From Candidatus Hydrogenedens sp. (GTDB taxonomy: Bacteria; Hydrogenedentota; Hydrogenedentia; Hydrogenedentales; Hydrogenedentaceae): a DNA stretch of 64,000 nucleotides. The position numbers were made by a program, and so were the translations under genes. The stretch is from contig JBMFRC010000002.1 in assembly GCA_049968235.1 (NCBI GenBank), positions 32,001 through 96,000 of the forward strand. Reading direction: 5' to 3'. The notes beneath the pieces are model-generated. The model was given only the letters and a program-made list of their open reading frames with translations. It was not told where the DNA came from and made no database searches. The first letter of the stretch is position 1. Every line of letters starts with the position of its first letter. This document shows, in pieces, positions 10,112 to 29,050 of this stretch.

Positions 10112-10322
10112 CACAGTCCCCAAATACCAATAATCCTTTTATTGGGCAGATGTTTTGTTTGTCTTTTCTGTTTCTTCCTATTTCCCATAAGCGTGATTTT
10201 GACAATAATTCTCAAAAACTGAAAAATACAATTTGACATTATATACACAATTATGGTATTACTTTTATATCGATTAGTAATACTAACAAATTAACAATCA
10301 ACAACCCATAGGAGAATTCATC

Positions 10323-11291
10323 GTGAAGAAAATAGGTTTCACACTAATTGAACTCCTTGTCGTCATCGCAATTATTGGTATTTTAGCTGCAATATTGCTT
10401 CCTGCATTAGCAAGAGCACGAGAAGCGGCACGTAGGTCCAGTTGTCAGAATAATCTAAAGCAATTTGGATTATCATTCAAAATGTATGCTAATGAAGCCA
10501 AAGGGGAACGTTTCCCGCCACTTCAACCTTTTACAAATCCTAATGGAGCACCTCTTTTTGCATCACCGGACCCAGAAGGCTTCTTTCCTGAGTATATGAA
10601 TGATTTAAATACTGCAAAATGTCCATCAGATACAGGTGTGGATGCGCAGGGACAATATGTTGCTGCACGCATTCCCGATGGTTCTATTGAAGACCATATA
10701 AAAGTTGCGGAGGAAAATAATGACCGATTAAGTGCTCGATATTTTCGTGCTGCCGCATTAGGTCGTTCTTATTGGTATCACGGTTTTGCTATTACAAATG
10801 TTGAGGAGTTCTACGGTATGTGGAATGCAACGGGAACACTTGGAGAAATAGAAACAATTACTCCGGGAACTATAATTGGCGTAAACCCCGTTACCGCTCC
10901 TGTAAAAAGAAAGAACTTTGATAACGATATTCCTGTTACTACAAAACTCCCATGGACTGCCATTTTAGGTAAGGGCTATGCAACAACCAATAATTGTGCT
11001 CGTTTGCGGGAGGGCATTGAACGCTTTGCTATCACAGATATAAATAATCCCGCCGCTTCAGCACAGGCACAAAGTGAAATTATTATTATGTTCGACACTT
11101 TTGGTAATCCCAATGATTCTGCAAATACCGCGGGAGGAGTTGTTTTCAATCACATGCCCGGCGGTTGTAATGTCCTCTATATGGATGGACATGTTGAATT
11201 TATCCGTTATCCCTCTAAATTCCCTGTTATAGATGACAAGGATAACAATTATGGGATACCCAGACAGGTAGGGCATTTCGGATTACAATAG
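10323..11291 (+). CDS. Prepilin-type N-terminal cleavage/methylation domain protein of the DUF1559 (H-X9-DG) family, a type II secretion pseudopilin-like protein
   Basis: GTG start with an AGGAGA RBS 7 nt upstream. N-terminus [47 protein letters not shown] is the class III prepilin leader plus the DUF1559 core. The C-terminus [11 protein letters not shown] is the H-X9-DG-like motif. Confidence 0.8.
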
Positions 11292-11310
11292 CAATCAGGA
11301 TTTATAGAAC

Positions 11311-12174
11311 ATGAAACATTTTATAATTTTTACTTCCTATAGGCTCCTAATCGTTTTAGCAGTGCTATGCAATATGTGGGGCGGTATTTCATCGCCCCAC
11401 ATATACGCAGACGAACCTGTCGTCGTTGGAACTTCAGCCATTCATTCCGCAGTTAAGGACCTAACAGGCAAAGATACTGAATTAGCAGTTGTAGTGCCTC
11501 CTGATTTATGTCCAGGACATTTTGACCTTAAACCCGGTGACATAGAAAAATTCATCAATGCTAAGTTAGTTATCTTACATACCTGGCAAAAGGATTTACC
11601 CGCAATTAAAAGCCTTATTCGCGGGACAAATCCTCCCCCGGAGAAAGTAGTATATATTCAGGTGGAAGGGAATTGGTTTGTTCCTAAAAATTATATTCTT
11701 GGATTAGAAAAAGTAGGTGCAGAATTAATTAGAGCAGGTCTGCTCACAGAAGATAATTACAAACAGCGAATAGAAAAAAGAAAAAAAGAAATATTTGAAT
11801 TTGAACAACAGATTTTGAGTAATATCAAAAATGTTCAACCCGGAAATATTCCTATAATTACATCTATTTTTCAGAGCGATTTTATAAACTGGTTAGGATT
11901 TAAAACGGTCTTAACTTTTCCACGAGCAGAAGAAATTAGTCTTTCTTCATGGGGAGAACTTTTAAAGAAAGGAAAGGAAGAAAAAGTTCAAATTGTAGTA
12001 GAAAATCTACAAAGTGGTGAAATAGAACTTGTTAAAAGATTGGCATCCGAATTAAATGCTCAATCCGCTATCCTTTCCAGTTTCCCTTATGCTTGTCCAG
12101 ATTGCAATTCATGGGAAACAAGTTTACAAAATAATGTAGACACTCTATTGAAGTCTATTAGCGAAGTCCATTAG
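11311..12174 (+). CDS. Metal (Zn/Mn-type) ABC transporter substrate-binding protein, ZnuA/TroA family
   Basis: VVVPPDLCPGHFDLKPGDIEKFINAKLVIL aligns with the ZnuA PPGxSPHxYExxPxDxxxLxxADLVV block. Signal peptide present. It is followed directly by the ATPase and permease genes. Confidence 0.65.
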   Translation: MKHFIIFTSYRLLIVLAVLCNMWGGISSPHIYADEPVVVGTSAIHSAVKDLTGKDTELAVVVPPDLCPGHFDLKPGDIEKFINAKLVILHTWQKDLPAIKSLIRGTNPPPEKVVYIQVEGNWFVPKNYILGLEKVGAELIRAGLLTEDNYKQRIEKRKKEIFEFEQQILSNIKNVQPGNIPIITSIFQSDFINWLGFKTVLTFPRAEEISLSSWGELLKKGKEEKVQIVVENLQSGEIELVKRLASELNAQSAILSSFPYACPDCNSWETSLQNNVDTLLKSISEVH

Positions 12175-12206
12175 CATTATACATCAAACAAATTTATTAT
12201 TATGTC

Positions 12207-12998
12207 ATGCCTGCTAAAAGTAATTTTGAAAATATTATTGAATTAAAAAGTGTTAGCGTCTTTTACAATAGCCATACTGCACTTGACGATATAACACTTT
12301 CATTTCGTCAGGGTGAATTTGCTGTTATTTTAGGACCTAATGGTTCCGGAAAAACAACTTTATTAAAAGTTTTATGTGGATTATGCCGATTCCAGACCGG
12401 TTCCGTAAAGATTTTAGGACAAATTCCATCCTCTTATAATTTTCTTTTACGAAGGAAAATTGCTCATGTCGCACAAATTGAGTCCATTGACCCAAAACTT
12501 CCCATAACCGTCCGTGAATCTGTATCTACAGGTAGGGCTGGTGTACGTGGATTGGGGATACCTTTAACAAAAGCAGACTGGGAATTGGTTGATTCCGTCA
12601 TAGAACGAGTTGGAATCTCCCACCTTGCTAATAAACCTATTGGTCATCTTTCTGGAGGAGAACGACAAAAAACATCTATTGCACGGGCGTTAGTACAGCA
12701 GGCTCCTATTTTACTGCTTGATGAACCTACCGCTTCTATTGACCCCAATGCACAAAAAGACATTTTAGATTTGTTAGAACATAAAATGGACTTACATCCA
12801 TTTACAACTTTATATGTTACTCATGAAATAGCAATGATACCCAATTGCTGTGACCGTATTATAATGTTGCAACAAGGAAAAGTTTGGGCAGATGGTAAAC
12901 CTGAAGAACTTTTGCTTGAAGAAAAGTTAAAAGAACTCTATGGTGGAAATGGATTTTGTTGTTCCAGCAAATTCGGGTTCCATCATTCACATTATTAG
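12207..12998 (+). CDS. Metal ABC transporter ATP-binding protein (ZnuC-like)
   Basis: Walker A GPNGSGKTTLLK, signature LSGGERQK, Walker B LLLDEPTASID. Confidence 0.85.
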   Translation: MPAKSNFENIIELKSVSVFYNSHTALDDITLSFRQGEFAVILGPNGSGKTTLLKVLCGLCRFQTGSVKILGQIPSSYNFLLRRKIAHVAQIESIDPKLPITVRESVSTGRAGVRGLGIPLTKADWELVDSVIERVGISHLANKPIGHLSGGERQKTSIARALVQQAPILLLDEPTASIDPNAQKDILDLLEHKMDLHPFTTLYVTHEIAMIPNCCDRIIMLQQGKVWADGKPEELLLEEKLKELYGGNGFCCSSKFGFHHSHY

Positions 12999-13010
12999 CA
13001 GAGAATTTCA

Positions 13011-13841
13011 TTGATGCATGAAATATTAGGTATACCTGAATATTTGTTACGCCCGATACTTGCAGGTCTTTTTTCAGGGATAGCATGCAGTATCGTAGGT
13101 GTTTTTATTGTTACCATGCATTTATCCTTCTTAGGTATCTGTATTGCACATTCCGCATTCACCGGAGCATTATTCGGTTTGTGGTTAGGCTGGAATCCTT
13201 TAACAGGTGCTATCCTTTTTAGTCTCGTTGCATCTGCCATTGTCGGACCCTTAGCAGACCGTGGAGAATTAAGCCCAGACACATCAACAGGAATTGTTTT
13301 TTCTACCATGTTAGGACTGGCTTTTCTCTTCTTAGGACTTATACCCGGCTCCAAAGCAAGTGCCTTAAGCCTTTTTTGGGGAAATATTTTGACTGTAACC
13401 CTGACAGATATTTACATTCTGGCTGGGATTGCTACGTTCTTATTACTTTTATTTACTCTCTTTTATAAGGAAATCCATGCGGTTTTATGCCATCGACAAA
13501 TTGCCATGTATGTTGGAATTCCAACTGCTCTTATTTTTTATCTGCTACTAATAACCACAGGGTTGACTATTGCAGTTTCTTTACAAACCGTTGGAGGTCT
13601 ATTAATTTACAGTCTATTGTTAAATCCTTCCGCATCAGCACATCAACTCACTTATCGATTCAAAACTATGCTCATTTTGTCCATTATTTTCGGTGTAACT
13701 TCGTGCTGGGGAGGAATTGCTCTTTCCTATAAATATAATCTCCCCACAGGTGCCACGATTATATTAATCTCCTCTTTTATATTTATCCTATCTGCTATCT
13801 TTTCACCCAAAAGACAGATACAAGGGACAAAAAATGTCTAA
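13011..13841 (+). CDS. Metal ABC transporter permease (ZnuB-like)
   Basis: Multi-pass hydrophobic protein of 276 aa, immediately downstream of the ATPase, with ZnuB-like topology. Confidence 0.75.
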   Translation: MMHEILGIPEYLLRPILAGLFSGIACSIVGVFIVTMHLSFLGICIAHSAFTGALFGLWLGWNPLTGAILFSLVASAIVGPLADRGELSPDTSTGIVFSTMLGLAFLFLGLIPGSKASALSLFWGNILTVTLTDIYILAGIATFLLLLFTLFYKEIHAVLCHRQIAMYVGIPTALIFYLLLITTGLTIAVSLQTVGGLLIYSLLLNPSASAHQLTYRFKTMLILSIIFGVTSCWGGIALSYKYNLPTGATIILISSFIFILSAIFSPKRQIQGTKNV

Positions 13842-14472
13842 CAAACAATCTCTTTACCCTGACCAACACTATTATCATCAAAAAGAAATTAATGCTTTCT
13901 TTGACCATCATGCACCTCAATGGGATTCTTATGCTTCTGAAGATGTCCTGGAAAAAGTAGATAATTTGTTAAAAAATATTGAAATCAAACCTACCAATAC
14001 AGTATTAGATATTGGTTGCGGAACGGGGGTCTTAGTTCCTTACCTATGGAGTCGTCTCAAACAGAACGGCACTTTAATCGAAGTGGATGTCTCGACAGAG
14101 ATGATTCGACATGGTAAAATGAAATTTATGAATATTCCATGTCATTGGCTCATCACAGATGCACATTTTCTTCCTATAAAATCTGAAAGTGCTGATATAA
14201 TTATTTGCTTCTCGATATTCCCTCATTTAATAAACAAAAAACAGGCTATAAAAGAGCACAGTCGAGTGTTGAAAAAGGGCGGCATCTGGGTTGTTTGCCA
14301 TTCACAGTCCAGCAAAACAATTAATGAATTTCATCAAAACGTTGGGGGTGTTGTTGCCCAACATGTAATACCAGAAATAAATGAAATAAAACATCTTTTA
14401 ATAGAGGCTAAATTGAATATGCAATATTTTCAAGACAACACAGAAGGATACCTTCTCATAGCCTCTCGTTAG
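13834..14472 (+). CDS. Class I SAM-dependent methyltransferase
   Basis: Motif I VLDIGCGTGVL and the post-I acidic residue (LIEVDVS). Overlaps the permease stop by 8 bp. Confidence 0.7.
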   Translation: MSNKQSLYPDQHYYHQKEINAFFDHHAPQWDSYASEDVLEKVDNLLKNIEIKPTNTVLDIGCGTGVLVPYLWSRLKQNGTLIEVDVSTEMIRHGKMKFMNIPCHWLITDAHFLPIKSESADIIICFSIFPHLINKKQAIKEHSRVLKKGGIWVVCHSQSSKTINEFHQNVGGVVAQHVIPEINEIKHLLIEAKLNMQYFQDNTEGYLLIASR

Positions 14473-14559
14473 AACCATACCGTTTAACATCATATCTTTT
14501 ATTTTGATATAATTCATCATAATTAACTTATCTTAATCCGAATGAAAAGAGGTTTTTTT

Positions 14560-15393
14560 ATGCATAGTGATATTTCTATTTTTGATTTGACAGGGAAAAC
14601 TGCTGTCGTTACTGGTGGCGCTGGAGTACTTGGAACTTCAATGGTTGAAGGATTGGTCCGTGCTGGTGCATCTGTTGCCATAGCGGATGTTTTATTAGAC
14701 AAAGCAAACGAACTAAAACAAAAAATTGAAAACCAAGGGGGAAAAGCACTTGCCCTTTATATGGATGCTTTTAACAAAGATACCATTGAAGAATCTGCCT
14801 ATACAATAGTCAAAGAATGGGGAAAAATTGATATTTTAGTCAACGGTGTAGGTGGTAATATGAAACAAGCCACAACTTCTCCTGAATTAAGTTTTTTCGA
14901 CATACCTACGGATGCGTTCCAGAAGGTCGTTAACTTAAATTTACTAGGTGGTGCCATTATTCCTTCTCAAGTATTTGGAAAATATATGGTACAAAATGCA
15001 GAGGGAGGCTCTATTATTAATATCGCATCGATGAATGCTATTCGCCCCCTAACACGCATTCCCGGATATAGTGCAGCAAAATCGGCTGTTGCTAACTTTA
15101 CACAGTGGTTAGCGGTCCATTTTGCTCAGGAATATAATCCGAAATTAAGAGTTAATGCGATAGCCCCGGGTTTTTTCCTTAGTGAACAGAATCGCTATTT
15201 GTTAATTGACGAAAAAACAGGTGAACCTACTCCCCGAGGTAAAACGATACTAACCCATACTCCTATGGGTCGCTATGGAGACCCATCAGACCTTATAGGA
15301 ACCCTTATCTGGCTTGCCAGTGATGCATCAAAATTCGTTACAGGCATCATTGTCCCTGTCGATGGTGGATTTTCAGCATTTTCCGGCGTATAG
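14560..15393 (+). CDS. SDR family NAD(P)-dependent oxidoreductase
   Basis: TGKTAVVTGGAGVLG cofactor motif, NGVGGN, catalytic YSAAKSAV. The ATG at 14560 has an AAGAGG RBS 7 nt upstream. The ORF track's 14542 start would add 6 residues. Confidence 0.8.
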   Translation: MHSDISIFDLTGKTAVVTGGAGVLGTSMVEGLVRAGASVAIADVLLDKANELKQKIENQGGKALALYMDAFNKDTIEESAYTIVKEWGKIDILVNGVGGNMKQATTSPELSFFDIPTDAFQKVVNLNLLGGAIIPSQVFGKYMVQNAEGGSIINIASMNAIRPLTRIPGYSAAKSAVANFTQWLAVHFAQEYNPKLRVNAIAPGFFLSEQNRYLLIDEKTGEPTPRGKTILTHTPMGRYGDPSDLIGTLIWLASDASKFVTGIIVPVDGGFSAFSGV

Positions 15394-15428
15394 CCAATAA
15401 AAATATAAAAGAAATAAGGAATCAAAAA

Positions 15429-16322
15429 ATGAAAGAAGATATTCAAAAATTATTAGACCACAAACCGACATCCTCATTTTTAATTGCCATTGATTCTGAT
15501 GGTTGTGCCTTCGACACAATGGAATTAAAACAAAAGGAATGTTTTACACCAAATACAATTAAATATTGGAATCTTCAGGCAATCTCTAAATATGCTCGTG
15601 AGGCATGTGAGTTTGTAAATCTCTATTCAAAATGGCGTGGTGCCAACCGTTTCCCTGCCCTTATTAAAGTTTTTGACCTTTTAATGGATTGGGATAAAGT
15701 AAAAGCAAGAAAAGTTCAAATCCCTCCCACGCCGAATTTACGAAAATGGATTGAAACAGAAACAAAATTAGGAAACCCTGCATTGGAAGCATATTGCAAA
15801 GAACATCCGGAACAAGAAGATATGCAGATAACACTCCAATGGAGTAAAGCAGTTAATAAAACGGTAGAAGATATTGTCAAAGGGGGTTTACCTCCTTTTC
15901 CATTTGTTGAAGAATGTCTTCAAAAATGTCAGGGAAAATCTGATATTATGGTTTGTTCTCAAACGCCAACCGAAGCATTAATCCGTGAATGGCAAGAACA
16001 AGACCTCGCAAAGTATGTTTTTGTTATATGCGGACAGGAAATAGGAACAAAGGCTGAACATATTAAGTTCGCTTCTGAAAACCGATACGAAAGGAGTCAT
16101 ATCTTGATGATTGGTGATGCCTACGGAGACCTTAAAGCGGCTCGAGCCAATAACGCATTATTCTTCCCCATTAACCCCGGTCATGAAGAAGAGTCATGGC
16201 AACGACTTTTCGAAGAAGGATTAGACCGTTTCTTCAACGGCACTTATGAAGGGGATTATGAAACTACTCTCATTAAAGAATTTGACAAATATCTCCCCGA
16301 AACCCCACCATGGAAAAGATAA
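15429..16322 (+). CDS. HAD-superfamily hydrolase-like protein
   Basis: Motif I-like IAIDSDGCAF, motif II-like MVCSQTP, motif IV-like MIGDAYGDLKAA. AAGGA RBS present. The family assignment is tentative. Confidence 0.5.
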   Translation: MKEDIQKLLDHKPTSSFLIAIDSDGCAFDTMELKQKECFTPNTIKYWNLQAISKYAREACEFVNLYSKWRGANRFPALIKVFDLLMDWDKVKARKVQIPPTPNLRKWIETETKLGNPALEAYCKEHPEQEDMQITLQWSKAVNKTVEDIVKGGLPPFPFVEECLQKCQGKSDIMVCSQTPTEALIREWQEQDLAKYVFVICGQEIGTKAEHIKFASENRYERSHILMIGDAYGDLKAARANNALFFPINPGHEEESWQRLFEEGLDRFFNGTYEGDYETTLIKEFDKYLPETPPWKR

Positions 16323-16352
16323 TCTTTTGCAGATAAAAAATTATTAAAAAAT

Positions 16353-17504
16353 ATGTTAATTGTTGCAGATGAAAATATCCCGTATGTGAAAGAAGGTTTT
16401 AATCAATTTGGAGAAGTAATTACTGTCCATGGTAGAAAAATTACAAAGGACATTATAAAAAATGCAGATGTTCTTCTGGTTCGCTCTATCACCAAAGTAA
16501 ATGCAGACCTTCTTGAAGGCACTTCTATTCGTTTTGTTGGCACTGCCACAATTGGTTATGACCACATTGACCTCGATTATTTAAACTTAAAAAGTATTGC
16601 CTTTTCCAGTGCGCCGGGTTCTAATGCTAACAGTGTAGCGGAGTATGTAGTTTCAGGATTGCTTCATCTGGAACAAAATTATAAATATATATTACAGGGC
16701 AAAAAAATAGGGATTGTAGGCGTAGGAAATGTAGGCTCCCGTGTTGCTAAAAAGGTCCCTGCATTAGGTCTATTTCCTGTACTCTATGACCCGCCTCTTG
16801 CGGAAAAAATGAATAATTACCCATTATTTGAACCCTTTGAAAACATATTGAACTGCGATATTATTACCTTTCATGTCCCATTAGAAAAAACAGGTCCCTA
16901 TCCAACTTACCACATGGCAAATAAAAATTTCTTCCCAAAACTACGTAAAGGTACTGTAATTATTAATACATCACGCGGTTCCGTTGTTGAAACAGAATCG
17001 CTACTAAATGCAATTGAACAGGGGATTATTTCTCACTCTATTATTGATGTGTGGGAGAATGAACCAAATATAGATATTGACCTACTTCAAAAAGTAACTA
17101 TAGGAACTCCGCACATTGCTGGCTATTCCTTTGATGGCAAGGTCAATGGGACATATCAGTTGTATGTATCACTATGCCGTTTTCTAAATCAAACTCCAAC
17201 ATGGGACTACCGAAAGAATCTACCCGACCCACCTATTAAAGAATTAGAATTAGCAAACGATAATCTATGGCTACTCCATAACACAGTCCATAAGATATAT
17301 GACATAACTGTTGATGATAAAGCACTACGAGAAATACAAAGTAAAAATGAAAATGAACGCGGTTCCTTTTTCGACCTTTTACGAAAAAATTATCCCATTC
17401 GGCGGGAATTTCAAAATACAACTATTCGTTTTATTCAAGATAATCCCATATTAGTAAACCAATTGGAAAGATTAGGTTTCAATGTAATAAGGGACAAGAA
17501 ATGA
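16353..17504 (+). CDS. pdxB: 4-phosphoerythronate dehydrogenase
   Basis: Similar to E. coli PdxB along the whole length: the N-terminus MLIVADENIPY matches MKILVDENMPY, VGTATIGYDHIDLDYL matches GTATAGTDHVD, the GxGxxG NAD site is IGIVGVGNVGSRV, and the C-terminal dimerisation domain LRKNYPIRREF...LGFNV matches LRKNYLERREW...LGFNAV. Confidence 0.85.
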   Translation: MLIVADENIPYVKEGFNQFGEVITVHGRKITKDIIKNADVLLVRSITKVNADLLEGTSIRFVGTATIGYDHIDLDYLNLKSIAFSSAPGSNANSVAEYVVSGLLHLEQNYKYILQGKKIGIVGVGNVGSRVAKKVPALGLFPVLYDPPLAEKMNNYPLFEPFENILNCDIITFHVPLEKTGPYPTYHMANKNFFPKLRKGTVIINTSRGSVVETESLLNAIEQGIISHSIIDVWENEPNIDIDLLQKVTIGTPHIAGYSFDGKVNGTYQLYVSLCRFLNQTPTWDYRKNLPDPPIKELELANDNLWLLHNTVHKIYDITVDDKALREIQSKNENERGSFFDLLRKNYPIRREFQNTTIRFIQDNPILVNQLERLGFNVIRDKK

Positions 17505-18754
17505 TTCAACAACGCATCGCAGAAGAAGGTTTTTTAACGCCTGAAGAAATTTCTCAATTTGTTCATCAAGTTTGTTCCGATTTAGAAGTTCAGGGGAAAA
17601 AAGCCCTGGTAATTATTCCTGACCAGACTCGTAGTATGCCCATGCCACTAATGTTTCGTGCTTTAACATCTGTATTATCAGGTAAGGCTCACAAATTAGA
17701 TTTTATCATAGCATTAGGTACACATCCCCCTTTATCAGAAAGTATGATTTATAAACTATTAGGCATCACACCTGAAGAAAAATTGACATTATATAAAAAC
17801 ATTAATATCTTTAATCACGCATGGCAGGACCCAAATGTTTTACACCTTTTAGGAGTTATATCTCGGGAAAAGGTTCATGAATTTTCCAATGGCTTACTGA
17901 ATCAGGAAGTCCCTGTTCAGATTAATCGTATTATTCTTGATTACGATGTTCTCCTTATTGTAGGACCTGTATTTCCTCATGAAGTTGTTGGCTTTAGTGG
18001 TGGAAATAAATATTTCTTCCCCGGTATTTCCGGGCCTGACTTCTTAAATGTATTCCATTGGTTAGGGGCACTCATCACCAATATTGAGATTAATGGCGTT
18101 AAAAATACCCCTGTCCGACAGTTAATTGATTATGCGAGTTCCATGATTCAAAAAGAAAAATATTGCTTTGCTCTGAATGTTGAACATGATAAAACACGAG
18201 CTATTTTCTTTGGTACACCGGAAGAAGCCTGGGATATAGCATCCGATTTATCCGCTCAAACACACATAATTTACAAACCTCGCACTTACCATTCGGTTCT
18301 GGCAGAATCGCCCCTTATGTATGATGAAATATGGACTGCCGGGAAGTGTATGTATAAATTAGAACCTGTTGTCTCGGATGATGGAGAACTTATCATTTAC
18401 GGACCTCATATCAAAGAAATTAGCGTTACACATGGACATTTAATTCGTAAAATCGGTTATCATACCCGTGATTATTTTCTTGCACAGATGGATAAATTCC
18501 GAGACATCCCCGGTGGTGTTTTAGCTCATTCTACACATGTTCGCGGAATAGGAACTTATGTCAATGGTATCGAAAAACCACGAGTAAAAGTAACTTTAGC
18601 TACATCCATTCCTAAAACAATATGTGAAGAAATTAATCTGGGCTATCGAGACCCATGTTCGATAAACATAGAGGACTGGAAAAATCGAGAAGATGATGGG
18701 ATTCTTTTTGTACCACAGGCGGGGGAAGTTCTTTATCGTGTGAGAAAGATATAA
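17501..18754 (+). CDS. LarA-family (nickel-pincer lactate racemase-like, DUF2088) protein
   Basis: N-terminus ALVIIPDQTRSMP matches the DUF2088 D.TR motif. HEVVGFSGGNKYFFPGI matches the LarA Lys-containing cofactor-attachment region. The ATG overlaps the pdxB TGA (ATGA). Confidence 0.65.
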   Translation: MIQQRIAEEGFLTPEEISQFVHQVCSDLEVQGKKALVIIPDQTRSMPMPLMFRALTSVLSGKAHKLDFIIALGTHPPLSESMIYKLLGITPEEKLTLYKNINIFNHAWQDPNVLHLLGVISREKVHEFSNGLLNQEVPVQINRIILDYDVLLIVGPVFPHEVVGFSGGNKYFFPGISGPDFLNVFHWLGALITNIEINGVKNTPVRQLIDYASSMIQKEKYCFALNVEHDKTRAIFFGTPEEAWDIASDLSAQTHIIYKPRTYHSVLAESPLMYDEIWTAGKCMYKLEPVVSDDGELIIYGPHIKEISVTHGHLIRKIGYHTRDYFLAQMDKFRDIPGGVLAHSTHVRGIGTYVNGIEKPRVKVTLATSIPKTICEEINLGYRDPCSINIEDWKNREDDGILFVPQAGEVLYRVRKI

Positions 18755-18820
18755 TAGGTTACTTCCACATAGGAAATTCAATCATTTAAAATATTAATTT
18801 ATCCAATCAAACTTTGGAAA

Positions 18821-18826
18821 GGAGAA
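18821..18826 (+). promoter_or_regulatory. Ribosome-binding site (GGAGAA) for the PFK-family gene
   Basis: GGAAAGGAGAAGAAAATG gives a purine-rich Shine-Dalgarno 5 nt before the ATG. Similar AGGAG-type sites precede gnd (20164..20169), the HAD gene and the DUF1559 GTG start. Confidence 0.6.
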
Positions 18827-18830
18827 GAAA

Positions 18831-20117
18831 ATGCCTAAAAATGTTATCGTTGCTCAGTCCGGTGGACCCAGCCCTGTAATAAATAATTCACTTCGTGGTG
18901 TAATTGAAACTTGCGAAATGTTTCCTGAAACATTCGGTACAGTTTATGCTGGCTGGCATGGAATTGAAGGCGTTATTAAGGAAGAACTTCTAAATTTATC
19001 AGAACAAAGCCCAGAGGAAATTGCTTTGCTACGCCATACACCAGCAGCAGGTTCCATCGGCACATGTCGTTATAAGTTAAAAAAAGGACAGGATGAGGAT
19101 TATCGACGGATTATTGATGTAATGAAAGCCCACGATATTGGTTACTTTTTTTACATCGGTGGAAACGACTCGATGGATACTGCAAACAAAGTAAGCAAAT
19201 TAGCCTTAGAACAAGGTCTTGACTTAGTAGCAGTGGGTATTCCCAAAACAATAGATAATGATGTAGGAGATTCTGAATTCAAACTTATTGACCATACCCC
19301 GGGTTATGGAAGTGTTGCCCGTTACTGGATGTGTATGGTCCAGAATGCAGAAGAGGAAAATCGCGGCTCCTGTCCAGCAGACCCTGTTCTGGTTTTACAA
19401 GCCATGGGCAGAAAAATCGGTTTCATTCCTGCATCTGCACGGTTAGCAGACCCAGAGCGACAGATACCTCTTCAAATATACATGACCGAATCAAAAGTTA
19501 CTCCCGAACAAATGTGCGACCTTGTAAACGACCAACTTAAACGCGACGGGCGTTGCATTATCGTTGTAAGTGAAGGCTTTGAAGTTGGTGAAATCGGTGA
19601 ACTTAAAGACAGTTTCGGGCATACTCAGTTCGGTTCTGCAAAGTTAACTGCAAGTCAGAAAATTGTAAATCTGCTCAATGAAAAAGGATTGGCAGTTCGT
19701 GGTTCTGCCCGTGGACAGGTTATGGGAACTGACCAGCGTTCATCTGCCATTTATGCTTCCACCGTAGACTTGGACGAAGCATATAATGTGGCACAAAAGG
19801 CAGTTCTTATCGCTTTAGAAGGGGAAAATGGCTGGATGGCTACGATATTAAGGACACCCGGGACTATTTACCATGTCTATTATGATAAAGTCCCGTTAGA
19901 AAAGGTAGCAAATTCGGAGCGGACATTTCCAGAAGCATGGATAGCCCCCAATAGAATTGATGTGACAGACGATTTTATTAAATATGCCATGCCCCTGGTT
20001 GGTGAAGAATGGGCAAGTGTTCCATTAGTAAATGGGAGACAACGGTTTACTCAATTTAAACCGATTTTTGCTGAAAAGAAATTATCTGACTATGTTCCTC
20101 AGGGGTATCGAAAATAA
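18831..20117 (+). CDS. Phosphofructokinase family protein with a GGNDS active-site variant, possibly the PPi-dependent type
   Basis: QSGGPSPVINNSLRG, IGGNDSMDTA in the position of GGDGS/GGDDS, MGRKIGF, and a strong GGAGA RBS. Confidence 0.75.
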   Translation: MPKNVIVAQSGGPSPVINNSLRGVIETCEMFPETFGTVYAGWHGIEGVIKEELLNLSEQSPEEIALLRHTPAAGSIGTCRYKLKKGQDEDYRRIIDVMKAHDIGYFFYIGGNDSMDTANKVSKLALEQGLDLVAVGIPKTIDNDVGDSEFKLIDHTPGYGSVARYWMCMVQNAEEENRGSCPADPVLVLQAMGRKIGFIPASARLADPERQIPLQIYMTESKVTPEQMCDLVNDQLKRDGRCIIVVSEGFEVGEIGELKDSFGHTQFGSAKLTASQKIVNLLNEKGLAVRGSARGQVMGTDQRSSAIYASTVDLDEAYNVAQKAVLIALEGENGWMATILRTPGTIYHVYYDKVPLEKVANSERTFPEAWIAPNRIDVTDDFIKYAMPLVGEEWASVPLVNGRQRFTQFKPIFAEKKLSDYVPQGYRK

Positions 20118-20174
20118 CATTTACGATATAATTCTTTTAAAATTAAACGAATATAAATATAAAAGGAGAATCAT

Positions 20175-21629
20175 ATGAACGAACTTAAAGACATTGGATT
20201 AGTGGGTTTAGCGGTAATGGGTGAAAACCTGGTATTAAACATGGAAAGCAAGGGATTTAGTGTCGCTGTGTTTAATCGCACTGTATCCAAAGTAGATGAT
20301 TTTATTAACGGACGTGCAAAAGGGAAGAATATAAAAGGTTGCCATTCTTTACAAGAACTTGTAAATAGTCTAAAAAAACCCCGCAAAATTATGCTCATGG
20401 TAAAAGCAGGCCAGGCGGTAGATGATTTTATTGAACAACTTATCCCATTAGTAGATCCGGGAGATATTATTATTGATGGAGGAAACAGCCATTTCCCTGA
20501 TACAACTCGAAGAACGAAATATTTAGAAAGTAAAGGTCTTCTATATATAGGCACAGGTGTATCCGGTGGAGAAGAAGGGGCTTTGAAAGGTCCGTCCATG
20601 ATGCCCGGTGGCTCTCCTCAAGCATGGGAACATGTTAAAAACATTTTTCAATCCATCTGTGCAAAAACTCCTGAAGGGGAACCTTGTTGTGATTGGGTAG
20701 GTGAAAATGGAGCCGGTCATTTCGTAAAAATGGTGCACAATGGTATTGAATATGGCGATATGCAAATGATTTGCGAGACATATCACCTGATGAAGCATGG
20801 ACTTGAAATGACAAATGAAGAAATGCATCAAGTCTTTTCAGAATGGTATGAAGGTGAGTTAAATTCCTATTTAATTGAAATCACACGAGATATCCTTGCT
20901 TATAAAAATGAAGAAGGACATTATGTTGTAGACCTCATTTTAGATACTGCTGGACAGAAAGGCACAGGGAAATGGACGGTCATTTCTGCTTTGGATGAAG
21001 GACAGCCTTTAACCGCTATTGCAGAAGCAGTATTTGCTCGTTGTTTATCTGCTATCAAAGCAGAGCGTGTAAAAGCCAGTCAAACATTACAGGGTAAAGT
21101 AACTACTTTTACAGGCGATAAAAAGCAATTTATTAACGACCTCCGCAAGGCCCTCTATGCATCTAAAATTGTAAGTTATGCTCAGGGTTACCAATTGATG
21201 CGTTCCGCTGCAAAAACTTATAATTGGAACTTAAATTATGGTGGTATTGCGTTAATGTGGCGGGGAGGTTGTATTATCCGTTCTGTGTTCTTAGGCAAAA
21301 TAAAAGAAGCCTTTGACAGAAATCCCAATCTGGAAAATCTATTGTTAGACCCATTTTTTGCAGGTATAGTTAATGATACACAAGATAGCTGGCGTCGGGT
21401 TGTTTCTACTGCAGTCCAATTAGGAATTCCTGTCCCTGCTATCAGTTCTGCATTATGTTATTTTGATGGTTATCGTAGTGCCTGGCTTCCAGCAAATTTA
21501 CTTCAAGCACAACGCGATTATTTCGGTGCTCATACCTATGAACGAGTAGACAAACCCAGAGGTGAATTTTTCCATACCAACTGGACCGGGCGTGGTGGTT
21601 CAACTTCTGCTTCAACTTATACTGTATAA
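20175..21629 (+). CDS. gnd: 6-phosphogluconate dehydrogenase (decarboxylating)
   Basis: IGLVGLAVMGENLVLNMESKGF, GTGVSGGEEGA and WRGGCIIRS are the classical Gnd motifs. AGGAG RBS. Confidence 0.92.
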   Translation: MNELKDIGLVGLAVMGENLVLNMESKGFSVAVFNRTVSKVDDFINGRAKGKNIKGCHSLQELVNSLKKPRKIMLMVKAGQAVDDFIEQLIPLVDPGDIIIDGGNSHFPDTTRRTKYLESKGLLYIGTGVSGGEEGALKGPSMMPGGSPQAWEHVKNIFQSICAKTPEGEPCCDWVGENGAGHFVKMVHNGIEYGDMQMICETYHLMKHGLEMTNEEMHQVFSEWYEGELNSYLIEITRDILAYKNEEGHYVVDLILDTAGQKGTGKWTVISALDEGQPLTAIAEAVFARCLSAIKAERVKASQTLQGKVTTFTGDKKQFINDLRKALYASKIVSYAQGYQLMRSAAKTYNWNLNYGGIALMWRGGCIIRSVFLGKIKEAFDRNPNLENLLLDPFFAGIVNDTQDSWRRVVSTAVQLGIPVPAISSALCYFDGYRSAWLPANLLQAQRDYFGAHTYERVDKPRGEFFHTNWTGRGGSTSASTYTV

Positions 21630-21634
21630 GAATT

Positions 21635-22435
21635 ATGAGTGGATTACATCCGGCGATACTTGCTTTAATCGCAACACTATTTACATGGTTCATGACATTG
21701 TTAGGGGCTTTGCCTGCTTTGTGGTCAAAGCCCATACCTCAAAGAATCCTTGATGGAACATTAGGAATGGCAGCAGGAGTCATGATTGCAGCATCCTTCT
21801 GGTCATTATTGGAACCTGCAATCGAGATGAGTAAAGAAATGGATATACCTTCATGGTTACCTGCTGTTATTGGCTTTTTATTAGGAGGTATTGCCCTATG
21901 GGCTATGGACAAGATACTCCCCCATTTACATCAAGGATTATCTATTGAAAATGCGGAAGGTATTCATACGAACTGGAAAAGAAGCACCCTTCTGGTAATG
22001 GCTATTACCCTACATAATATCCCCGAGGGATTAGCAGTTGGTGTTGCTTTCGGAGCCACAGCATACGGTATTCCGGGCGCATCCTTAACCGGGGCTATTG
22101 TTCTGGCTATCGGTATCGGTTTGCAAAATCTACCTGAAGGCACTGCCGTAGCATTACCCCTTCGTCGTGAAGGATTTTCCCCATGGAAAAGTTTCTTTGT
22201 GGGACAACTTTCCGGTATTGTTGAACCAATTGCTGGAGTAATAGGTGCTCTTGCTGTTTTAGTGGCAAGACCTATTTTACCATTTGCTTTAGCCTTTGCT
22301 GCAGGGGCTATGATTTTTGTCGTAGCAGAAGAATTAATTCCTGAATCACAAAAAGAAGGCGATACTGATTTGCCCACTGTAGGGGTTATGTTTGGTTTTG
22401 CCCTCATGATGTTTTTGGATGTAGCGTTGGGATAA
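21635..22435 (+). CDS. ZIP family metal cation transporter (ZupT-like)
   Basis: ITLHNIPEGLAVG and GIGLQNLPEG are the ZIP signature HNxPEG motifs. Eight predicted TM segments. Confidence 0.85.
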   Translation: MSGLHPAILALIATLFTWFMTLLGALPALWSKPIPQRILDGTLGMAAGVMIAASFWSLLEPAIEMSKEMDIPSWLPAVIGFLLGGIALWAMDKILPHLHQGLSIENAEGIHTNWKRSTLLVMAITLHNIPEGLAVGVAFGATAYGIPGASLTGAIVLAIGIGLQNLPEGTAVALPLRREGFSPWKSFFVGQLSGIVEPIAGVIGALAVLVARPILPFALAFAAGAMIFVVAEELIPESQKEGDTDLPTVGVMFGFALMMFLDVALG

Positions 22436-22441
22436 CAATAT

Positions 22442-23428
22442 ATGAGCGAGAACACATTTAAAATTTTCGTTACACGCAATCTCCCCGAAAGAGGTTTAAT
22501 TTTACTCTATCAGAACTTCGGTGAAGAAAACATACAAATATATCCTGGTGAAACACCCATTCCTTATGAAGAATTATTGGCAAAGGTTAAAGGAATAGAT
22601 GCCCTTTTGTGTTTGCTCACAGATAAAATAGATGTGAGAATTATGGAACAGGCAGGACCCCAGTTAAAAATAATTGCAAATTATGCAGTTGGATATGATA
22701 ACATAGACATAGGTGAAGCAACGAAAAGGAAAATTGTCGTGACCAACACTCCCGGGGTTTTAACAGAAACAACAGCCGATTTAGCATGGGCACTTTTAAT
22801 GGCATCTGCACGCCGATTGGGAGAAGGGGAGCGATTGGTTCGTGCATCACAATGGGCAGGTTGGAACCCGACATTACTTTTAGGTATGGATATTCACGGG
22901 AAAACATTGGGTATCTTTGGTATGGGGAGAATCGGTCAGGCAGTAGCAAGAAGGGCTACAGGTTTCAATATGCGTGTTATTTATTACGATGTAACCGAAC
23001 CAAAACTACCTGAAGATATTAAAGCGACTCCTGTAGATAAAGAAACTCTATTAAAAGAATCTGATTTTATATCTATCCATTGTCCTCTGACGCGAAGCAC
23101 TTACCATGCTTTCGGAATCGATGAATTTAAGAAAATGAAACGGACCGCATGTATAATAAATACATCCCGGGGTCCTGTTATTGACGAAGAAGCATTGGCT
23201 CAGGCTCTTAAAGAAGGCTTCATATTCTCTGCGGGATTAGATGTCTTTGAAAAAGAACCCGAAATTCATCCCGATTTACTAAATTGTCCCAATGCTATTT
23301 TAATACCTCATTTAGGAAGTGCGTCGGTTGAAACCCGCTCCCGTATGGCGGAGATTGCTGCACAAAATATTATTGCTCGTCTTAACGGGGAAAAACCACC
23401 CAACCCAGTAAATCCTGAAGTTCTTTAA
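22442..23428 (+). CDS. D-isomer-specific 2-hydroxyacid dehydrogenase (glyoxylate/hydroxypyruvate reductase-like)
   Basis: GKTLGIFGMGRIGQAVARRA NAD motif and the catalytic triad region NTSRGPVID...IPHLGSA. Confidence 0.85.
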   Translation: MSENTFKIFVTRNLPERGLILLYQNFGEENIQIYPGETPIPYEELLAKVKGIDALLCLLTDKIDVRIMEQAGPQLKIIANYAVGYDNIDIGEATKRKIVVTNTPGVLTETTADLAWALLMASARRLGEGERLVRASQWAGWNPTLLLGMDIHGKTLGIFGMGRIGQAVARRATGFNMRVIYYDVTEPKLPEDIKATPVDKETLLKESDFISIHCPLTRSTYHAFGIDEFKKMKRTACIINTSRGPVIDEEALAQALKEGFIFSAGLDVFEKEPEIHPDLLNCPNAILIPHLGSASVETRSRMAEIAAQNIIARLNGEKPPNPVNPEVL

Positions 23429-23452
23429 TCACTCTTATGAGCGGGAAATTAA

Positions 23453-24373: not shown

Positions 24374-24526
24374 GACTTCTCCCTTCTACTGATATTTCAT
24401 GAACAAACTTAGTCCATGGGTGGAAGTTCCTTCTGTTATTATTTCGTTTTTTTTGAGATTTCCCCTACCCTGCAAGATATTTCTCAGAAATATTATAACT
24501 CTTTTAATTCGTTTTCTTCAAAAAAC

Positions 24527-29041: not shown

Positions 29042-29050
29042 ATTAGCAAT

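What the first reader, a model, noticed from the sequence alone, without database searches (positions are those of the whole stretch)
14560..20117. pdxB translationally coupled to a LarA-family gene inside an SDR-HAD-PFK-gnd string
pdxB is itself a 2-hydroxyacid dehydrogenase acting on 4-phosphoerythronate. It ends in an ATGA overlap with a LarA/DUF2088 family gene (HEVVGFSGGNK region), which belongs to the nickel-pincer racemase/epimerase family. Immediately upstream are an SDR oxidoreductase and a HAD-like phosphatase. Downstream are a PFK-family kinase with a GGNDS variant and gnd. The coupling suggests the LarA homolog epimerises or racemises a phosphorylated 2-hydroxy acid related to the PdxB substrate or product, possibly erythronate/threonate-type, as part of a sugar-acid route feeding the pentose-phosphate pathway. 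No larB, larC or larE cofactor-synthesis genes are in the window.
Basis: inference. Interest (0 to 1): 0.55.

Follow-up and report, generated by a model that had tools for sequence, protein, structure and literature searches.

The report
Sugar-acid epimerase gene beside pdxB
The LarA-like gene is a nickel-cofactor sugar-acid epimerase of the known gluconate/mannonate type sitting in a uronic-acid-to-pentose-phosphate gene cluster, and its tight pairing with the vitamin-B6 gene pdxB is a quirk of one candidate phylum, not evidence that the two enzymes share a substrate.

Summary
On the + strand lie an SDR, a HAD-like gene, pdxB, a LarA homolog (ATGA overlap at 17501-17504), a PPi-PFK and gnd, in a Candidatus Hydrogenedens genome.

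The LarA homolog keeps every NPN-binding and catalytic residue. It belongs to the published GntE clade (Desguin group 19): 42% identical to C. glutamicum GntE1, and its best solved relative is T. maritima GntE2 (4NAR).

In 71 non-Hydrogenedentota genomes pdxB is never within 10 kb. The recurrent partner there is a D-mannonate-oxidoreductase-type SDR. UxaC, UxaE, FGGY kinase, gnd and, in one locus, larE-larB-larC occur nearby in some.

The best reading is a hexuronate, mannonate, gluconate, pentose-phosphate route of the Thermotoga type.

The pdxB-LarA adjacency is nevertheless fixed across Hydrogenedentota (11/11 relatives; overlapping or nearly abutting in two of them). pdxB shows all PdxB hallmarks, and in Planctomycetota it sits in a different context.

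Two things stay open. One is whether the epimerase acts on free or 6-phosphorylated mannonate. The other is why pdxB and a conserved, uncharacterised HAD phosphatase ride in the operon.

No larBCE genes are in the window; the rest of the genome could not be searched.

The parts
14484..14513 (+). Best sigma-70-like promoter match in the region (TTAACA, 18 nt spacer, TG, TATAAT). It lies in the 70-nt gap before the SDR gene and is a possible operon start.
   Evidence: 11 of 12 matches, the top hit in 9000-24600. Promoter-like hits overall are not enriched over shuffles, so this is only suggestive. No intergenic terminator-like site lies between 14473 and 23428.
14542..15393 (+). SDR oxidoreductase of the D-mannonate oxidoreductase (fructuronate reductase) type. 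The likely start is 14560.
   Evidence: PRK08277 at 357.6 bits (cut-off 281); second-best PDB hit is 1VL8, which I recall (not checked here) to be T. maritima TM0441 (UxaD); it sits directly upstream of the LarA homolog in Verrucomicrobiota, Chloroflexota, Acidobacteriota and Armatimonadota.
15429..16322 (+). HAD-superfamily (C1-cap, subfamily IA-like) phosphatase or phosphomutase of unknown substrate, highly conserved.
   Evidence: weak HAD_2 match; no NCBIfam hit and no PDB sequence hit; 67-97% identical homologs; the DSDG, S/T, K and GDxxxD motifs are invariant. AF2 model with pLDDT 92.6; Foldseek finds only generic HAD sugar-phosphatase, beta-PGM and PGP folds (TM about 0.45-0.53).
16353..17504 (+). 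PdxB, 4-phosphoerythronate dehydrogenase.
   Evidence: full-length hits to the PdxB structures 3OET, 5DT9 and 2O4C (E 1e-83 to 1e-72). DUF3410 dimerisation domain. Arg44-Ser45, the DPP loop, His-x3-Tyr (HIAGY) and the RRE motif are read from the sequence against PMC6303947; a 100% identical protein is named PdxB of Candidatus Hydrogenedens sp.
17501..17504 (+). ATGA stop/start overlap between pdxB and the LarA homolog.
   Evidence: The same 4-nt overlap occurs in L005. L001 has a 2-nt spacer. Most other relatives show roughly 65-430 nt by crude ORF calls; L010 is unresolved.
17501..18754 (+). LarA-superfamily, NPN-type 2-hydroxyacid C2-epimerase of the GntE clade (Desguin group 19-like).
   Evidence: best PDB hit is 4NAR (TM0442, GntE2), E 2.5e-59, or 3.7e-80 with a profile; 48% identical to Trad_0660, 42% to GntE1, 34% to GntE2. 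D41/R44, H75, H160, K170 and H186 are invariant and align with LarA D72/R75, H108, H174, K184 and H200; the signature matches group 19.
18831..20117 (+). Pyrophosphate-dependent phosphofructokinase, PRK14072 group.
   Evidence: 374.6 bits (cut-off 273); best PDB hits are the PPi-PFKs 3K2Q and 3HNO. 3K2Q reads GGGDS where this protein reads GGNDS. The PKTIDND motif has Lys at the PPi-type position (residue rule from my own knowledge).
20175..21629 (+). Decarboxylating 6-phosphogluconate dehydrogenase (gnd).
   Evidence: TIGR00873 at 779.6 bits; clustered with the LarA homolog also in KSB1 (L012) and in L079.
21635..22435 (+). ZIP-family (ZupT-like) metal transporter, 5 nt after gnd.
   Evidence: At this position only in the window and its closest relative L001.
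22442..23428 (+). GhrB/glyoxylate-reductase-like D-2-hydroxyacid dehydrogenase, the last gene of the co-directional string.
   Evidence: PRK13243 at 397 bits (cut-off 455); GhrB model at 266 bits. It recurs downstream of gnd in L001, L004 and L010.

Best explanation
The LarA homolog is a nickel-pincer-nucleotide (NPN) dependent C2-epimerase of the GntE clade. It interconverts D-mannonate and D-gluconate, or their 6-phosphates.

With the upstream SDR (fructuronate to mannonate) and the downstream gnd, it forms a Thermotoga-type branch of hexuronate catabolism. This branch sends uronic-acid carbon into the pentose-phosphate pathway instead of through mannonate dehydratase and KDG. The PPi-PFK handles the hexose phosphates that result.

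pdxB is an ordinary 4-phosphoerythronate dehydrogenase for PLP synthesis. It became fixed inside this operon in the Hydrogenedentota ancestor and is co-translated with the epimerase without sharing its substrate.

Shown here: the family memberships, the residue conservation and the cross-phylum gene contexts.

Inferred: the direction of flux, the phosphorylation state of the substrate, the passenger status of pdxB and the role of the HAD protein.
For: **Identity of the LarA homolog**
- Full-length match to the GntE2 structure 4NAR.
- 42% identity to characterised GntE1.
- Group-19 specificity signature.
- NPN and catalytic residues invariant.

**Gene context across phyla**
- Locus L036 encodes an FGGY kinase, the LarA homolog, UxaC, the PRK08277-type SDR, LarE, LarB and LarC.
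- UxaE lies next to the homolog in L079 and within about 1.3 kb in L021. The same ORF cluster (not Pfam-checked) is close by in L038 and about 1.5 kb away in L070.
- FGGY kinases lie near it in L014, L036 and L062.
- The SDR is adjacent on the same strand in 16 Verrucomicrobiota loci, 2 of 2 Chloroflexota, 1 of 2 Acidobacteriota and 1 of 3 Armatimonadota.
- KSB1 locus L012 keeps SDR-gnd-LarA homolog-PFK-HAD in a different order and without pdxB.

**Published parallels**
- Desguin's groups 18-20 have the same contexts: SDR, 6PGDH, UxaC, LarBCE.
- GntE2 is proposed to let mannonate enter the pentose-phosphate pathway (PMC7583248).

**pdxB as a canonical enzyme in a lineage-specific position**
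- pdxB has all the PdxB hallmarks.
- It sits in an unrelated context in Planctomycetota, where it overlaps a pterin-binding gene in two of the three loci.
- Only six clade-specific substitutions separate Hydrogenedentota LarA homologs from the rest.
Against: - No sugar-acid kinase, UxaC or UxaE lies in the window, so the route is incomplete locally.
- The pdxB-LarA pair is fixed in 11 of 11 Hydrogenedentota-type relatives. This includes L002 and L003, where the SDR and HAD genes are gone. Such persistence is more than a random passenger would usually show.
- The characterised group-19 enzyme GntE1 has a KM of 120 mM for mannonate, so its authors doubt that mannonate is the native substrate.
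- The conserved HAD phosphatase has no role in the simple model.
- NPN synthesis genes could not be looked for in the rest of this genome.
Confidence: 0.55

Rival explanations
1. Phosphorylated-hexonate variant. As in Lactobacillus suebicus, mannonate is first phosphorylated. The LarA homolog is then the still-unidentified 6-phosphomannonate 2-epimerase, producing 6-phosphogluconate directly for Gnd. The HAD phosphatase and PdxB, both enzymes for phosphorylated acids, belong to the same phospho-sugar-acid module.
For: - PMC6978723: cell extracts convert mannonate to 6-phosphomannonate and then to 6-phosphogluconate. The genes are unknown, and a TM0442 homolog is expressed on galacturonate.
- KM values for free mannonate in this clade are high: 9.4, 17 and 120 mM.
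- The LarA homolog sits next to gnd, a phosphatase and a phospho-acid dehydrogenase.
- W338 is replaced by G in the Hydrogenedentota, KSB1, L019 and L077 proteins, and S268 by A in Hydrogenedentota. Both may enlarge the pocket.
Against: - No kinase is in the cluster.
- No clade-specific basic residues that could bind a phosphate.
- GntE2, GntE1 and LarAH15 do turn over free mannonate in vitro.
- Phosphorylated substrates appear not to have been tested on a LarA homolog in the two papers read here.
Confidence: 0.2
2. The LarA homolog epimerises a phosphorylated four-carbon 2-hydroxy acid (4-phospho-D-erythronate to or from 4-phospho-D-threonate, or the free tetronates). It thereby supplies or drains the PdxB substrate.
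For: - The pdxB-LarA pairing is conserved, and in two lineages overlapping, across Hydrogenedentota.
- Erythronate and threonate are C2 epimers.
- Some LarA homologs epimerise 4-deoxy-threonate/erythronate (PMC11770544).
Against: - The specificity signature is the hexonate GntE type and is shared with orthologs that have no pdxB nearby.
- 0 of 71 loci outside the phylum have pdxB.
- pdxB orthologs elsewhere lack a LarA neighbour.
- LarAH15, the GntE-branch enzyme screened in PMC11770544, showed no activity on the small 2-hydroxy acids listed, 4-deoxy-tetronates included.
Confidence: 0.07
3. Damage-control model. PdxB, and perhaps the HAD phosphatase, are kept in the operon to remove 4-phosphoerythronate. 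This side product of erythrose-4-phosphate oxidation poisons 6-phosphogluconate dehydrogenase, the enzyme through which this route must flow.
For: - 4PE inhibits 6PGDH and is cleared by phosphatases (HAD-type Pho13 in yeast; CpgA in B. subtilis), per PMC6449344.
- gnd, PdxB and a HAD phosphatase are co-directional here.
- E. coli PdxB has a very low KM (2.9 uM) for its best substrate (PMC6303947).
Against: - gnd is less constant in the cluster than the pdxB-LarA pair: it is absent within 10 kb in L081, L082 and L002.
- The HAD protein is not detectably related to the PGP/Pho13 subfamily beyond the shared fold.
- There is no experimental evidence.
Confidence: 0.08
4. By-product recycling model. 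PdxB needs 2-keto acids as co-substrates and releases D-2-hydroxy acids such as D-2-hydroxyglutarate. The neighbouring LarA homolog racemises that by-product.
For: - PdxB uses 2-ketoglutarate, oxaloacetate and pyruvate as co-substrates (PMC6303947).
- The LarA superfamily contains 2-hydroxyglutarate, malate and lactate racemases.
- In Planctomycetota, pdxB lies near a large FAD-oxidase/Fer4/CCG dehydrogenase that resembles, from my memory, the E. coli D-2-hydroxyglutarate dehydrogenase YdiJ.
Against: The LarA homolog has the GntE signature (E, V ... A, H / W-T-G-K), not the HGR, MAR or LAR signatures. Orthologs without pdxB are the rule.
Confidence: 0.03

Closest known systems
GntE1 (LarAH19) of Corynebacterium glutamicum and 'group 19' LarA homologs (Desguin et al. 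2020, PMC7583248)
   Same: 42% identity to GntE1 and 48% to group-19 member Trad_0660. The catalytic, NPN and specificity signature is the same except for one position, G instead of A at the LarA V297 equivalent. The uronate-related context with UxaC, SDR and LarBCE in relatives matches.
   Different: It comes from Hydrogenedentota. W338 is replaced by G next to the alpha-14 specificity region. It is flanked by pdxB, a HAD phosphatase, a PPi-PFK and gnd, and lacks the neighbours tabulated for group 19, such as LacI, UxaC, COG0246 dehydrogenase and LarBCE.
T. maritima hexuronate-to-pentose-phosphate branch, gntE lying between the fructuronate-reductase and gluconate-kinase genes (Rodionova 2012, as cited in PMC7583248, PMC6978723 and PMC5673643); TM locus numbers other than TM0442 are from memory
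   Same: An SDR mannonate oxidoreductase, a LarA-type epimerase and 6-phosphogluconate dehydrogenase are clustered. The proposed logic is mannonate to gluconate to 6-phosphogluconate to ribulose-5-phosphate.
   Different: No gluconate kinase, UxaC or UxaE lies in the window. pdxB, the HAD gene and the PPi-PFK are extra. The epimerase is 34% identical and belongs to group 19, not group 20.
L. suebicus mannonate kinase / 6-phosphomannonate 2-epimerase route (Valk et al. 2020, PMC6978723)
   Same: It also links mannonate to 6-phosphogluconate and Gnd. A GntE homolog is the candidate epimerase.
   Different: The activities were shown only in cell extracts and the genes are unassigned. Nothing here shows that the Hydrogenedens enzyme uses the phosphorylated form.
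PdxB of gamma-proteobacteria (E. coli; structures 3OET, 5DT9, 2O4C)
   Same: Full-length similarity, the DUF3410 dimerisation domain, the phosphate anchors Arg44, Tyr258 and Arg346, and the DPP loop.
   Different: The phylum lies outside the gamma-proteobacteria and Bacteroidetes range given in the 2018 classification. The gene is embedded in a sugar-acid operon, and its stop overlaps a LarA homolog's start.

Membership tests
LarA superfamily (NPN-dependent 2-hydroxyacid racemases/epimerases) | Full-length homology to LarA-fold proteins (Lar_N plus the C-terminal domain) | tested here: met
   Pfam Lar_N, E 4.4e-20. PDB hits: 4NAR over residues 11-415; 2YJG, 5HUQ and 6D6Z with the profile.
LarA superfamily (NPN-dependent 2-hydroxyacid racemases/epimerases) | NPN-binding residues equivalent to LarA R75, K184 and H200 | tested here: met
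   R44, K170 and H186 align with them and are invariant in 18 diverse homologs and in all 80 genome loci.
LarA superfamily (NPN-dependent 2-hydroxyacid racemases/epimerases) | Catalytic histidines equivalent to H108 and H174 | tested here: met
   H75 and H160 are aligned and invariant.
LarA superfamily (NPN-dependent 2-hydroxyacid racemases/epimerases) | LarB, LarC and LarE encoded in the same genome | not testable with these tools
   None in the 64-kb window, nor in about 12 kb of short contigs from another assembly that carry the window's two edge genes. The whole genome could not be scanned. The ortholog locus L036 carries larE-larB-larC 2.6 kb downstream.
LarA superfamily (NPN-dependent 2-hydroxyacid racemases/epimerases) | Nickel/NPN-dependent isomerase activity | not testable with these tools
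   Needs biochemistry.
GntE clade (D-gluconate/D-mannonate 2-epimerases; Desguin groups 18-20) | Specificity signature: E-V/S after the catalytic His, W in alpha-11, and the A-H / S-T-H-R region in alpha-14 | tested here: met
   The window reads DRHH-EV-K-H...W-T-G-K-G-L-A-S-T-H-R. Group 19 reads ...W-T-A-K-G-L/I-A-S-T-H-R. The 'E, V, A, H' rule comes from PMC11770544.
GntE clade (D-gluconate/D-mannonate 2-epimerases; Desguin groups 18-20) | Close sequence relationship to a characterised GntE | tested here: met
   42% to GntE1 and 34% to GntE2 over nearly the full length.
GntE clade (D-gluconate/D-mannonate 2-epimerases; Desguin groups 18-20) | Passing NCBIfam NF052594 (group-18 'putative hexonate epimerase') | tested here: not met
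   171.4 bits against a cut-off of 500. It is therefore not a group-18 equivalog. No NCBIfam model for group 19 matched.
GntE clade (D-gluconate/D-mannonate 2-epimerases; Desguin groups 18-20) | Hexuronate/hexonate gene context | tested here: met
   Window: PRK08277-type SDR and gnd. Relatives: UxaC, UxaE, FGGY kinase, gnd.
GntE clade (D-gluconate/D-mannonate 2-epimerases; Desguin groups 18-20) | Epimerisation of D-mannonate to D-gluconate at physiological KM | not testable with these tools
   Even characterised GntE1 has a KM of 120 mM.
PdxB (4-phosphoerythronate dehydrogenase) | 2HADH catalytic and NAD domains plus the PdxB-specific C-terminal dimerisation domain | tested here: met
   PF00389, PF02826 and PF11890. 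Aligned end to end with 3OET.
PdxB (4-phosphoerythronate dehydrogenase) | Phosphate anchors Arg44 (Arg-Ser motif), Tyr258 and Arg346; Asp-Pro-Pro loop; catalytic Arg/Glu/His | tested here: met
   R44-S45, YDPP, TSRG, WENEP, PHIAGY and NYPIRRE are read in the sequence and lie in blocks aligned with the Salmonella and Vibrio PdxB structures. Feature list from PMC6303947.
PdxB (4-phosphoerythronate dehydrogenase) | NCBIfam equivalog cut-off | tested here: inconclusive
   NF001309 scores 431.3 bits against a cut-off of 434, i.e. 3 bits short. NCBI names the identical protein PdxB.
PdxB (4-phosphoerythronate dehydrogenase) | Rest of the DXP-dependent PLP pathway (epd, serC, pdxA, pdxJ) in the genome | not testable with these tools
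   None in the window or the fetched loci. The genome is not searchable here.
Thermotoga-type hexuronate-to-PPP operon | Uronate isomerase or UxaE, mannonate oxidoreductase, GntE, gluconate kinase and Gnd together | tested here: not met
   The window has only the SDR, the GntE-like gene and gnd. No UxaC, UxaE or sugar-acid kinase lies in the 64 kb. The fuller set is seen in L036.
PPi-dependent PFK (PRK14072 group) | Subfamily model above cut-off; Asp and Lys at the PPi-type positions | tested here: met
   374.6 bits against 273. GGNDS and PKTIDND; best PDB relatives are the PPi-PFKs 3K2Q and 3HNO. The residue rule is from my own knowledge.
HAD superfamily phosphatase | Rossmannoid core with the DxD nucleophile motif, S/T, K and DD motifs | tested here: met
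   D22-S-D24, S177/T179, K208 and D230/D234 are invariant. The AF2 model (pLDDT 92.6) matches HAD folds. No subfamily or substrate could be assigned.

The most novel reading that the evidence does not exclude
In Hydrogenedentota the GntE1-type LarA homolog may work on a phosphorylated aldonate: 6-phosphomannonate/6-phosphogluconate, or less likely 4-phosphoerythronate/4-phosphothreonate. Together with PdxB and the uncharacterised HAD phosphatase it would form a phospho-sugar-acid module next to Gnd. That would give the first gene for the orphan 6-phosphomannonate 2-epimerase activity and the first nickel-pincer enzyme acting on a phosphorylated substrate. It would also explain the very high KM of group-19 enzymes for free mannonate.
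Probability: 0.15. Interest if true: 0.7.

Novelty: new variant of a known kind. Interest (0 to 1): 0.35.

Why it matters
The epimerase is a new member of an already described clade, and the route it implies is known from Thermotoga. On that count the finding is largely ordinary.

What is new is the operon architecture. An SDR-HAD-pdxB-LarA homolog core is fixed across a whole candidate phylum. The cluster contains no sugar-acid kinase but does contain a highly conserved orphan HAD phosphatase.

Two questions are open in the literature: the native substrate of group-19 'GntE1' enzymes, and the gene for 6-phosphomannonate 2-epimerase. These loci give concrete proteins to test for both. The cluster also extends bona fide PdxB beyond gamma-proteobacteria and Bacteroidetes.

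Tried and rejected
1. **larB, larC and larE.** I looked with family scans of 29 window ORFs, by reading the remaining ORFs and with six-frame motif scans of the window and 80 loci. Only L036 had them. Look-ups of the window's two edge genes landed on short contigs of another assembly and added nothing.
2. **pdxA, pdxJ, pdxS, pdxT.** Motif scans of the window and all 80 genome loci found none, so the 'orphan PdxB' test could not be made.
3. **The HAD protein.** There was no PDB sequence hit and no NCBIfam hit. The fold search gave only generic HAD-IA matches, so no substrate could be assigned.
4. **Rodionova 2012 (PMC4505799).** The paper is not held. Its content is cited second-hand from PMC7583248, PMC6978723 and PMC5673643.
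5. **Regulatory RNA.** Rfam and tRNA scans of the window found nothing.
6. **Group-18 membership.** Considered and rejected, because NF052594 scores far below its cut-off.
7. **The PFK homolog as the missing sugar-acid kinase.** Considered and set aside. It has canonical PPi-PFK motifs and there is no supporting evidence.
8. **ORF calling in high-GC loci.** My crude method produced antisense artefacts (clusters 2, 11 and 21). Adjacency counts therefore rest on tblastn.

Full report
**Observation**

The region holds, on the + strand, a run of closely spaced genes:
- SDR, 14542/14560-15393
- HAD-like, 15429-16322
- PdxB-like, 16353-17504
- LarA-like, 17501-18754
- PFK-family, 18831-20117
- gnd, 20175-21629
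- ZupT-like transporter, 21635-22435
- GhrB-like 2-hydroxyacid dehydrogenase, 22442-23428

The pdxB stop and the LarA-like start overlap as ATGA at 17501-17504. Pfam and NCBIfam confirm each family.

The best promoter-like match of the region lies just upstream of the SDR gene. No intergenic terminator-like site interrupts the string. An operon starting near 14500 is therefore plausible but not shown.

A protein 100% identical to the PdxB is recorded from a Candidatus Hydrogenedens sp. MAG. The closest LarA-like homologs are also Hydrogenedentes.

Overlaps of 4-8 nt occur in 3 of about 30 co-directional gene pairs in the window. One pair, a permease and a methyltransferase, is functionally unrelated. 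The ATGA by itself therefore says little.

**What the LarA homolog is**

Its best solved relative is 4NAR, at E 2.5e-59 over residues 11-415, or 3.7e-80 with a profile. The 4NAR sequence is that of T. maritima TM0442, shown by Desguin et al. 2020 to be the D-gluconate/D-mannonate 2-epimerase GntE2.

Aligned to L. plantarum LarA, the residues match as follows:

| Window residue | LarA equivalent | Role |
|---|---|---|
| D41, R44 | D72, R75 | NPN binding |
| H75 | H108 | catalysis |
| H160 | H174 | catalysis |
| K170 | K184 | NPN tether |
| H186 | H200 | nickel ligand |

All are invariant in 18 diverse homologs and in 80 genome loci.

The published specificity signature places the protein in Desguin's group 19, the GntE1 group. 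It is 48% identical to Trad_0660, 44% to a Frankia member, 42% to characterised C. glutamicum GntE1 and 34% to GntE2. It does not reach the NCBIfam model for group 18 (171 bits against 500).

GntE1 epimerises mannonate, but with a KM of 120 mM. Its authors suspect a related native substrate.

**Neighbourhoods**

A scan of one genome per species found at least 596 genomes encoding a relative. The best 80 loci were kept. They come from Hydrogenedentota, Planctomycetota, Verrucomicrobiota, Acidobacteriota, Armatimonadota, Chloroflexota, KSB1 and Abditibacteriota.

tblastn with the window's proteins gave these results:
- pdxB is adjacent on the same strand in 9 of 9 Hydrogenedentota-type loci. Two of these bins are labelled Nitrospiraceae, and two carry no phylum label.
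- pdxB is within 10 kb in 0 of 71 other loci.
- Two further Hydrogenedentota contigs show SDR-HAD-PdxB-(glyoxalase)-LarA homolog.
- In L002 and L003 the SDR and HAD genes are missing but PdxB-LarA homolog-PFK remains.
- The 4-nt overlap recurs in L005, and L001 has a 2-nt spacer. Most other relatives have roughly 65-430 nt by crude ORF calls; L010 is unresolved.

Outside the phylum the recurrent partner is the PRK08277-type SDR directly upstream. This holds in 16 Verrucomicrobiota loci, 2 of 2 Chloroflexota, and members of Acidobacteriota and Armatimonadota.

- UxaE lies next to the LarA homolog in L079 and about 1.3 kb away in L021 (Pfam). The same ORF cluster, not checked with Pfam, is close by in L038 and about 1.5 kb away in L070.
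- FGGY kinases lie near it in L014, L036 and L062.

The most informative locus is L036 (Capsulimonadaceae). It encodes an FGGY kinase, the LarA homolog, UxaC, the mannonate-oxidoreductase SDR, LarE, LarB and LarC.

The KSB1 locus L012 keeps SDR-gnd-LarA homolog-PFK-HAD in a different order and without pdxB. pdxB is therefore the one gene of the window's string that is not shared. In 12 Planctomycetaceae loci the downstream neighbour is histidinol-phosphatase HisN.

These contexts match those tabulated for Desguin's groups 18-20.

**pdxB**

The protein aligns end to end with the three PdxB crystal structures. It has the PdxB-only dimerisation domain. It also carries the features listed in the 2HADH classification:
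- Arg44-Ser45
- the Asp-Pro-Pro loop
- the catalytic Arg, Glu and His
- Tyr four residues after the catalytic His
- the Arg of the dimerisation domain

It is 3 bits under the NCBIfam equivalog cut-off.

PdxB orthologs of similar divergence (51-54% identity) occur in Phycisphaerae, Sedimentisphaerales and other Planctomycetota. There they sit in a different, conserved context: a large FAD-oxidase/Fer4/CCG protein, a radical-SAM gene, an NMO gene, pdxB and a pterin-binding gene. In two of the three loci pdxB overlaps the pterin-binding gene.

So pdxB is a canonical enzyme whose operon partners differ by lineage. This fits the long-known habit of pdx genes to sit in mixed-function operons (my own knowledge).

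**Is the Hydrogenedentota epimerase different?**

I compared 10 Hydrogenedentota proteins with 71 others. Only six positions are clade-specific: S45, M46, I103, T254, A268 and G338. None introduces a basic residue.

G338 replaces a Trp that is present in most other clades and in GntE1. It lies next to the alpha-14 specificity segment. The same Gly occurs in KSB1, L019 and L077, where no pdxB lies within 10 kb. There is thus no sign of a change of substrate class tied to pdxB.

**Other members**

- **SDR.** It passes the D-mannonate oxidoreductase model. Its second-best PDB hit is 1VL8, which I recall (not checked here) to be TM0441. T. maritima UxaD is reported as a mannonate oxidoreductase (PMC5673643).
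- **PFK.** It is a PPi-type enzyme of the PRK14072 group. The 'GGNDS variant' is group-typical variation, since 3K2Q reads GGGDS.
- **HAD protein.** It is strikingly conserved: 67-73% identity in most listed homologs, the named ones all from Hydrogenedentota. It has intact catalytic motifs and a confident HAD-IA model, but no assignable substrate.

**Mechanism proposed**

Fructuronate, made from glucuronate or galacturonate by UxaC or UxaE encoded elsewhere, is reduced by the SDR to D-mannonate. The NPN-dependent epimerase inverts C2 to give D-gluconate. After phosphorylation, Gnd yields ribulose-5-phosphate.

This is the route proposed for T. maritima, and its epimerase step was demonstrated by Desguin et al..

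Whether epimerisation comes before or after phosphorylation is open. L. suebicus extracts phosphorylate mannonate first and then epimerise 6-phosphomannonate. The genes are unidentified, and a GntE homolog is the candidate. No later paper in the library mentions 6-phosphomannonate.

**Rivals**

Four rival readings are listed with their evidence:
1. A phosphorylated-hexonate substrate.
3. 4-phosphoerythronate damage control for Gnd. 4PE inhibits 6PGDH (PMC6449344).
4. Recycling of PdxB's 2-hydroxy-acid by-product.

None is excluded. Each has less support than the hexonate reading.

**Limits**

- The rest of the genome could not be searched, so the presence of larBCE, pdxA/J, uxaC and a sugar-acid kinase is unknown.
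- No coordinates of predicted structures were available to place residue 338.
- All functional statements are inferences from sequence and context.

**Verdict**

The epimerase is a new member of the known GntE clade, in a new operon variant. The lineage-fixed pdxB and HAD companions remain unexplained. Interest is moderate to low.

Noticed in passing
L036:8244-16798: A Capsulimonadaceae (Armatimonadota) MAG has an almost complete operon: FGGY kinase, GntE-type LarA homolog, UxaC, D-mannonate oxidoreductase SDR, LarE, LarB and LarC. It joins hexuronate catabolism with nickel-pincer cofactor synthesis and is a good source for heterologous expression.
   Followed up: partly
window 15429-16322: An orphan HAD-IA family (297 aa, enlarged helical cap). 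Most listed homologs are 67-73% identical, and the named ones are all from Hydrogenedentota. It is also clustered with the LarA homolog in KSB1 (L012), L019 and L079. It has no NCBIfam model, no PDB sequence relative and no assigned substrate.
   Followed up: partly
window 18512-18514 (LarA homolog residue 338): A Trp conserved in most clades and in GntE1 ('HPWGxxAHS') is Gly in Hydrogenedentota, KSB1, L019 and L077 ('IPGGVLAHS') and Arg in a group of Planctomycetota loci, many of which have HisN downstream. The position adjoins the alpha-14 specificity segment.
   Followed up: partly
L083:1-9972, L084:2751-10818, L085:1306-9408: In Phycisphaerae, Sedimentisphaerales and other Planctomycetota, pdxB lies in a conserved block with a large FAD-oxidase/Fer4/CCG dehydrogenase, a radical-SAM gene, an NMO-family gene and a pterin-binding gene. 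From memory, the dehydrogenase resembles the E. coli D-2-hydroxyglutarate dehydrogenase YdiJ. pdxB overlaps the pterin-binding gene in L083 and L085. This possibly links PdxB with disposal of its 2-hydroxyglutarate by-product.
   Followed up: no
window 11311-13841, 21635-22435, 23453-24373: Metal-transport genes bracket the operon that encodes a nickel-cofactor enzyme. A putative substrate-binding protein (no family hit), an ABC ATPase and a permease lie upstream. A ZupT-like ZIP transporter sits 5 nt after gnd. A CorA-like channel lies just downstream on the other strand. The metal specificity is unknown.
   Followed up: no
window 36825-42083: Two tandem paralogous genes (885 and 864 aa) encode proteins that, judged by eye, have a shared N-terminal domain and a sulfatase-like domain. 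A possible third sulfatase-like gene lies at 35418-36530. None was scanned against a family library. With what looks like an alpha-L-rhamnosidase-like gene (56210-59047, also by eye), they suggest degradation of sulfated polysaccharides.
   Followed up: no
window 28145-30490: Two consecutive signal-peptidase-I-like genes, judged by eye. The second (479 aa) appears to contain a duplicated peptidase domain.
   Followed up: no
L004, L005: Two bins labelled 'uncultured Nitrospiraceae' carry the Hydrogenedentota-type pdxB-LarA homolog cluster (with SDR and HAD upstream; L004 also has PFK and gnd). Their LarA homologs are 61-63% identical to the window's, and L004's PFK and gnd about 80%. The taxonomic label may be wrong.
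   Followed up: no
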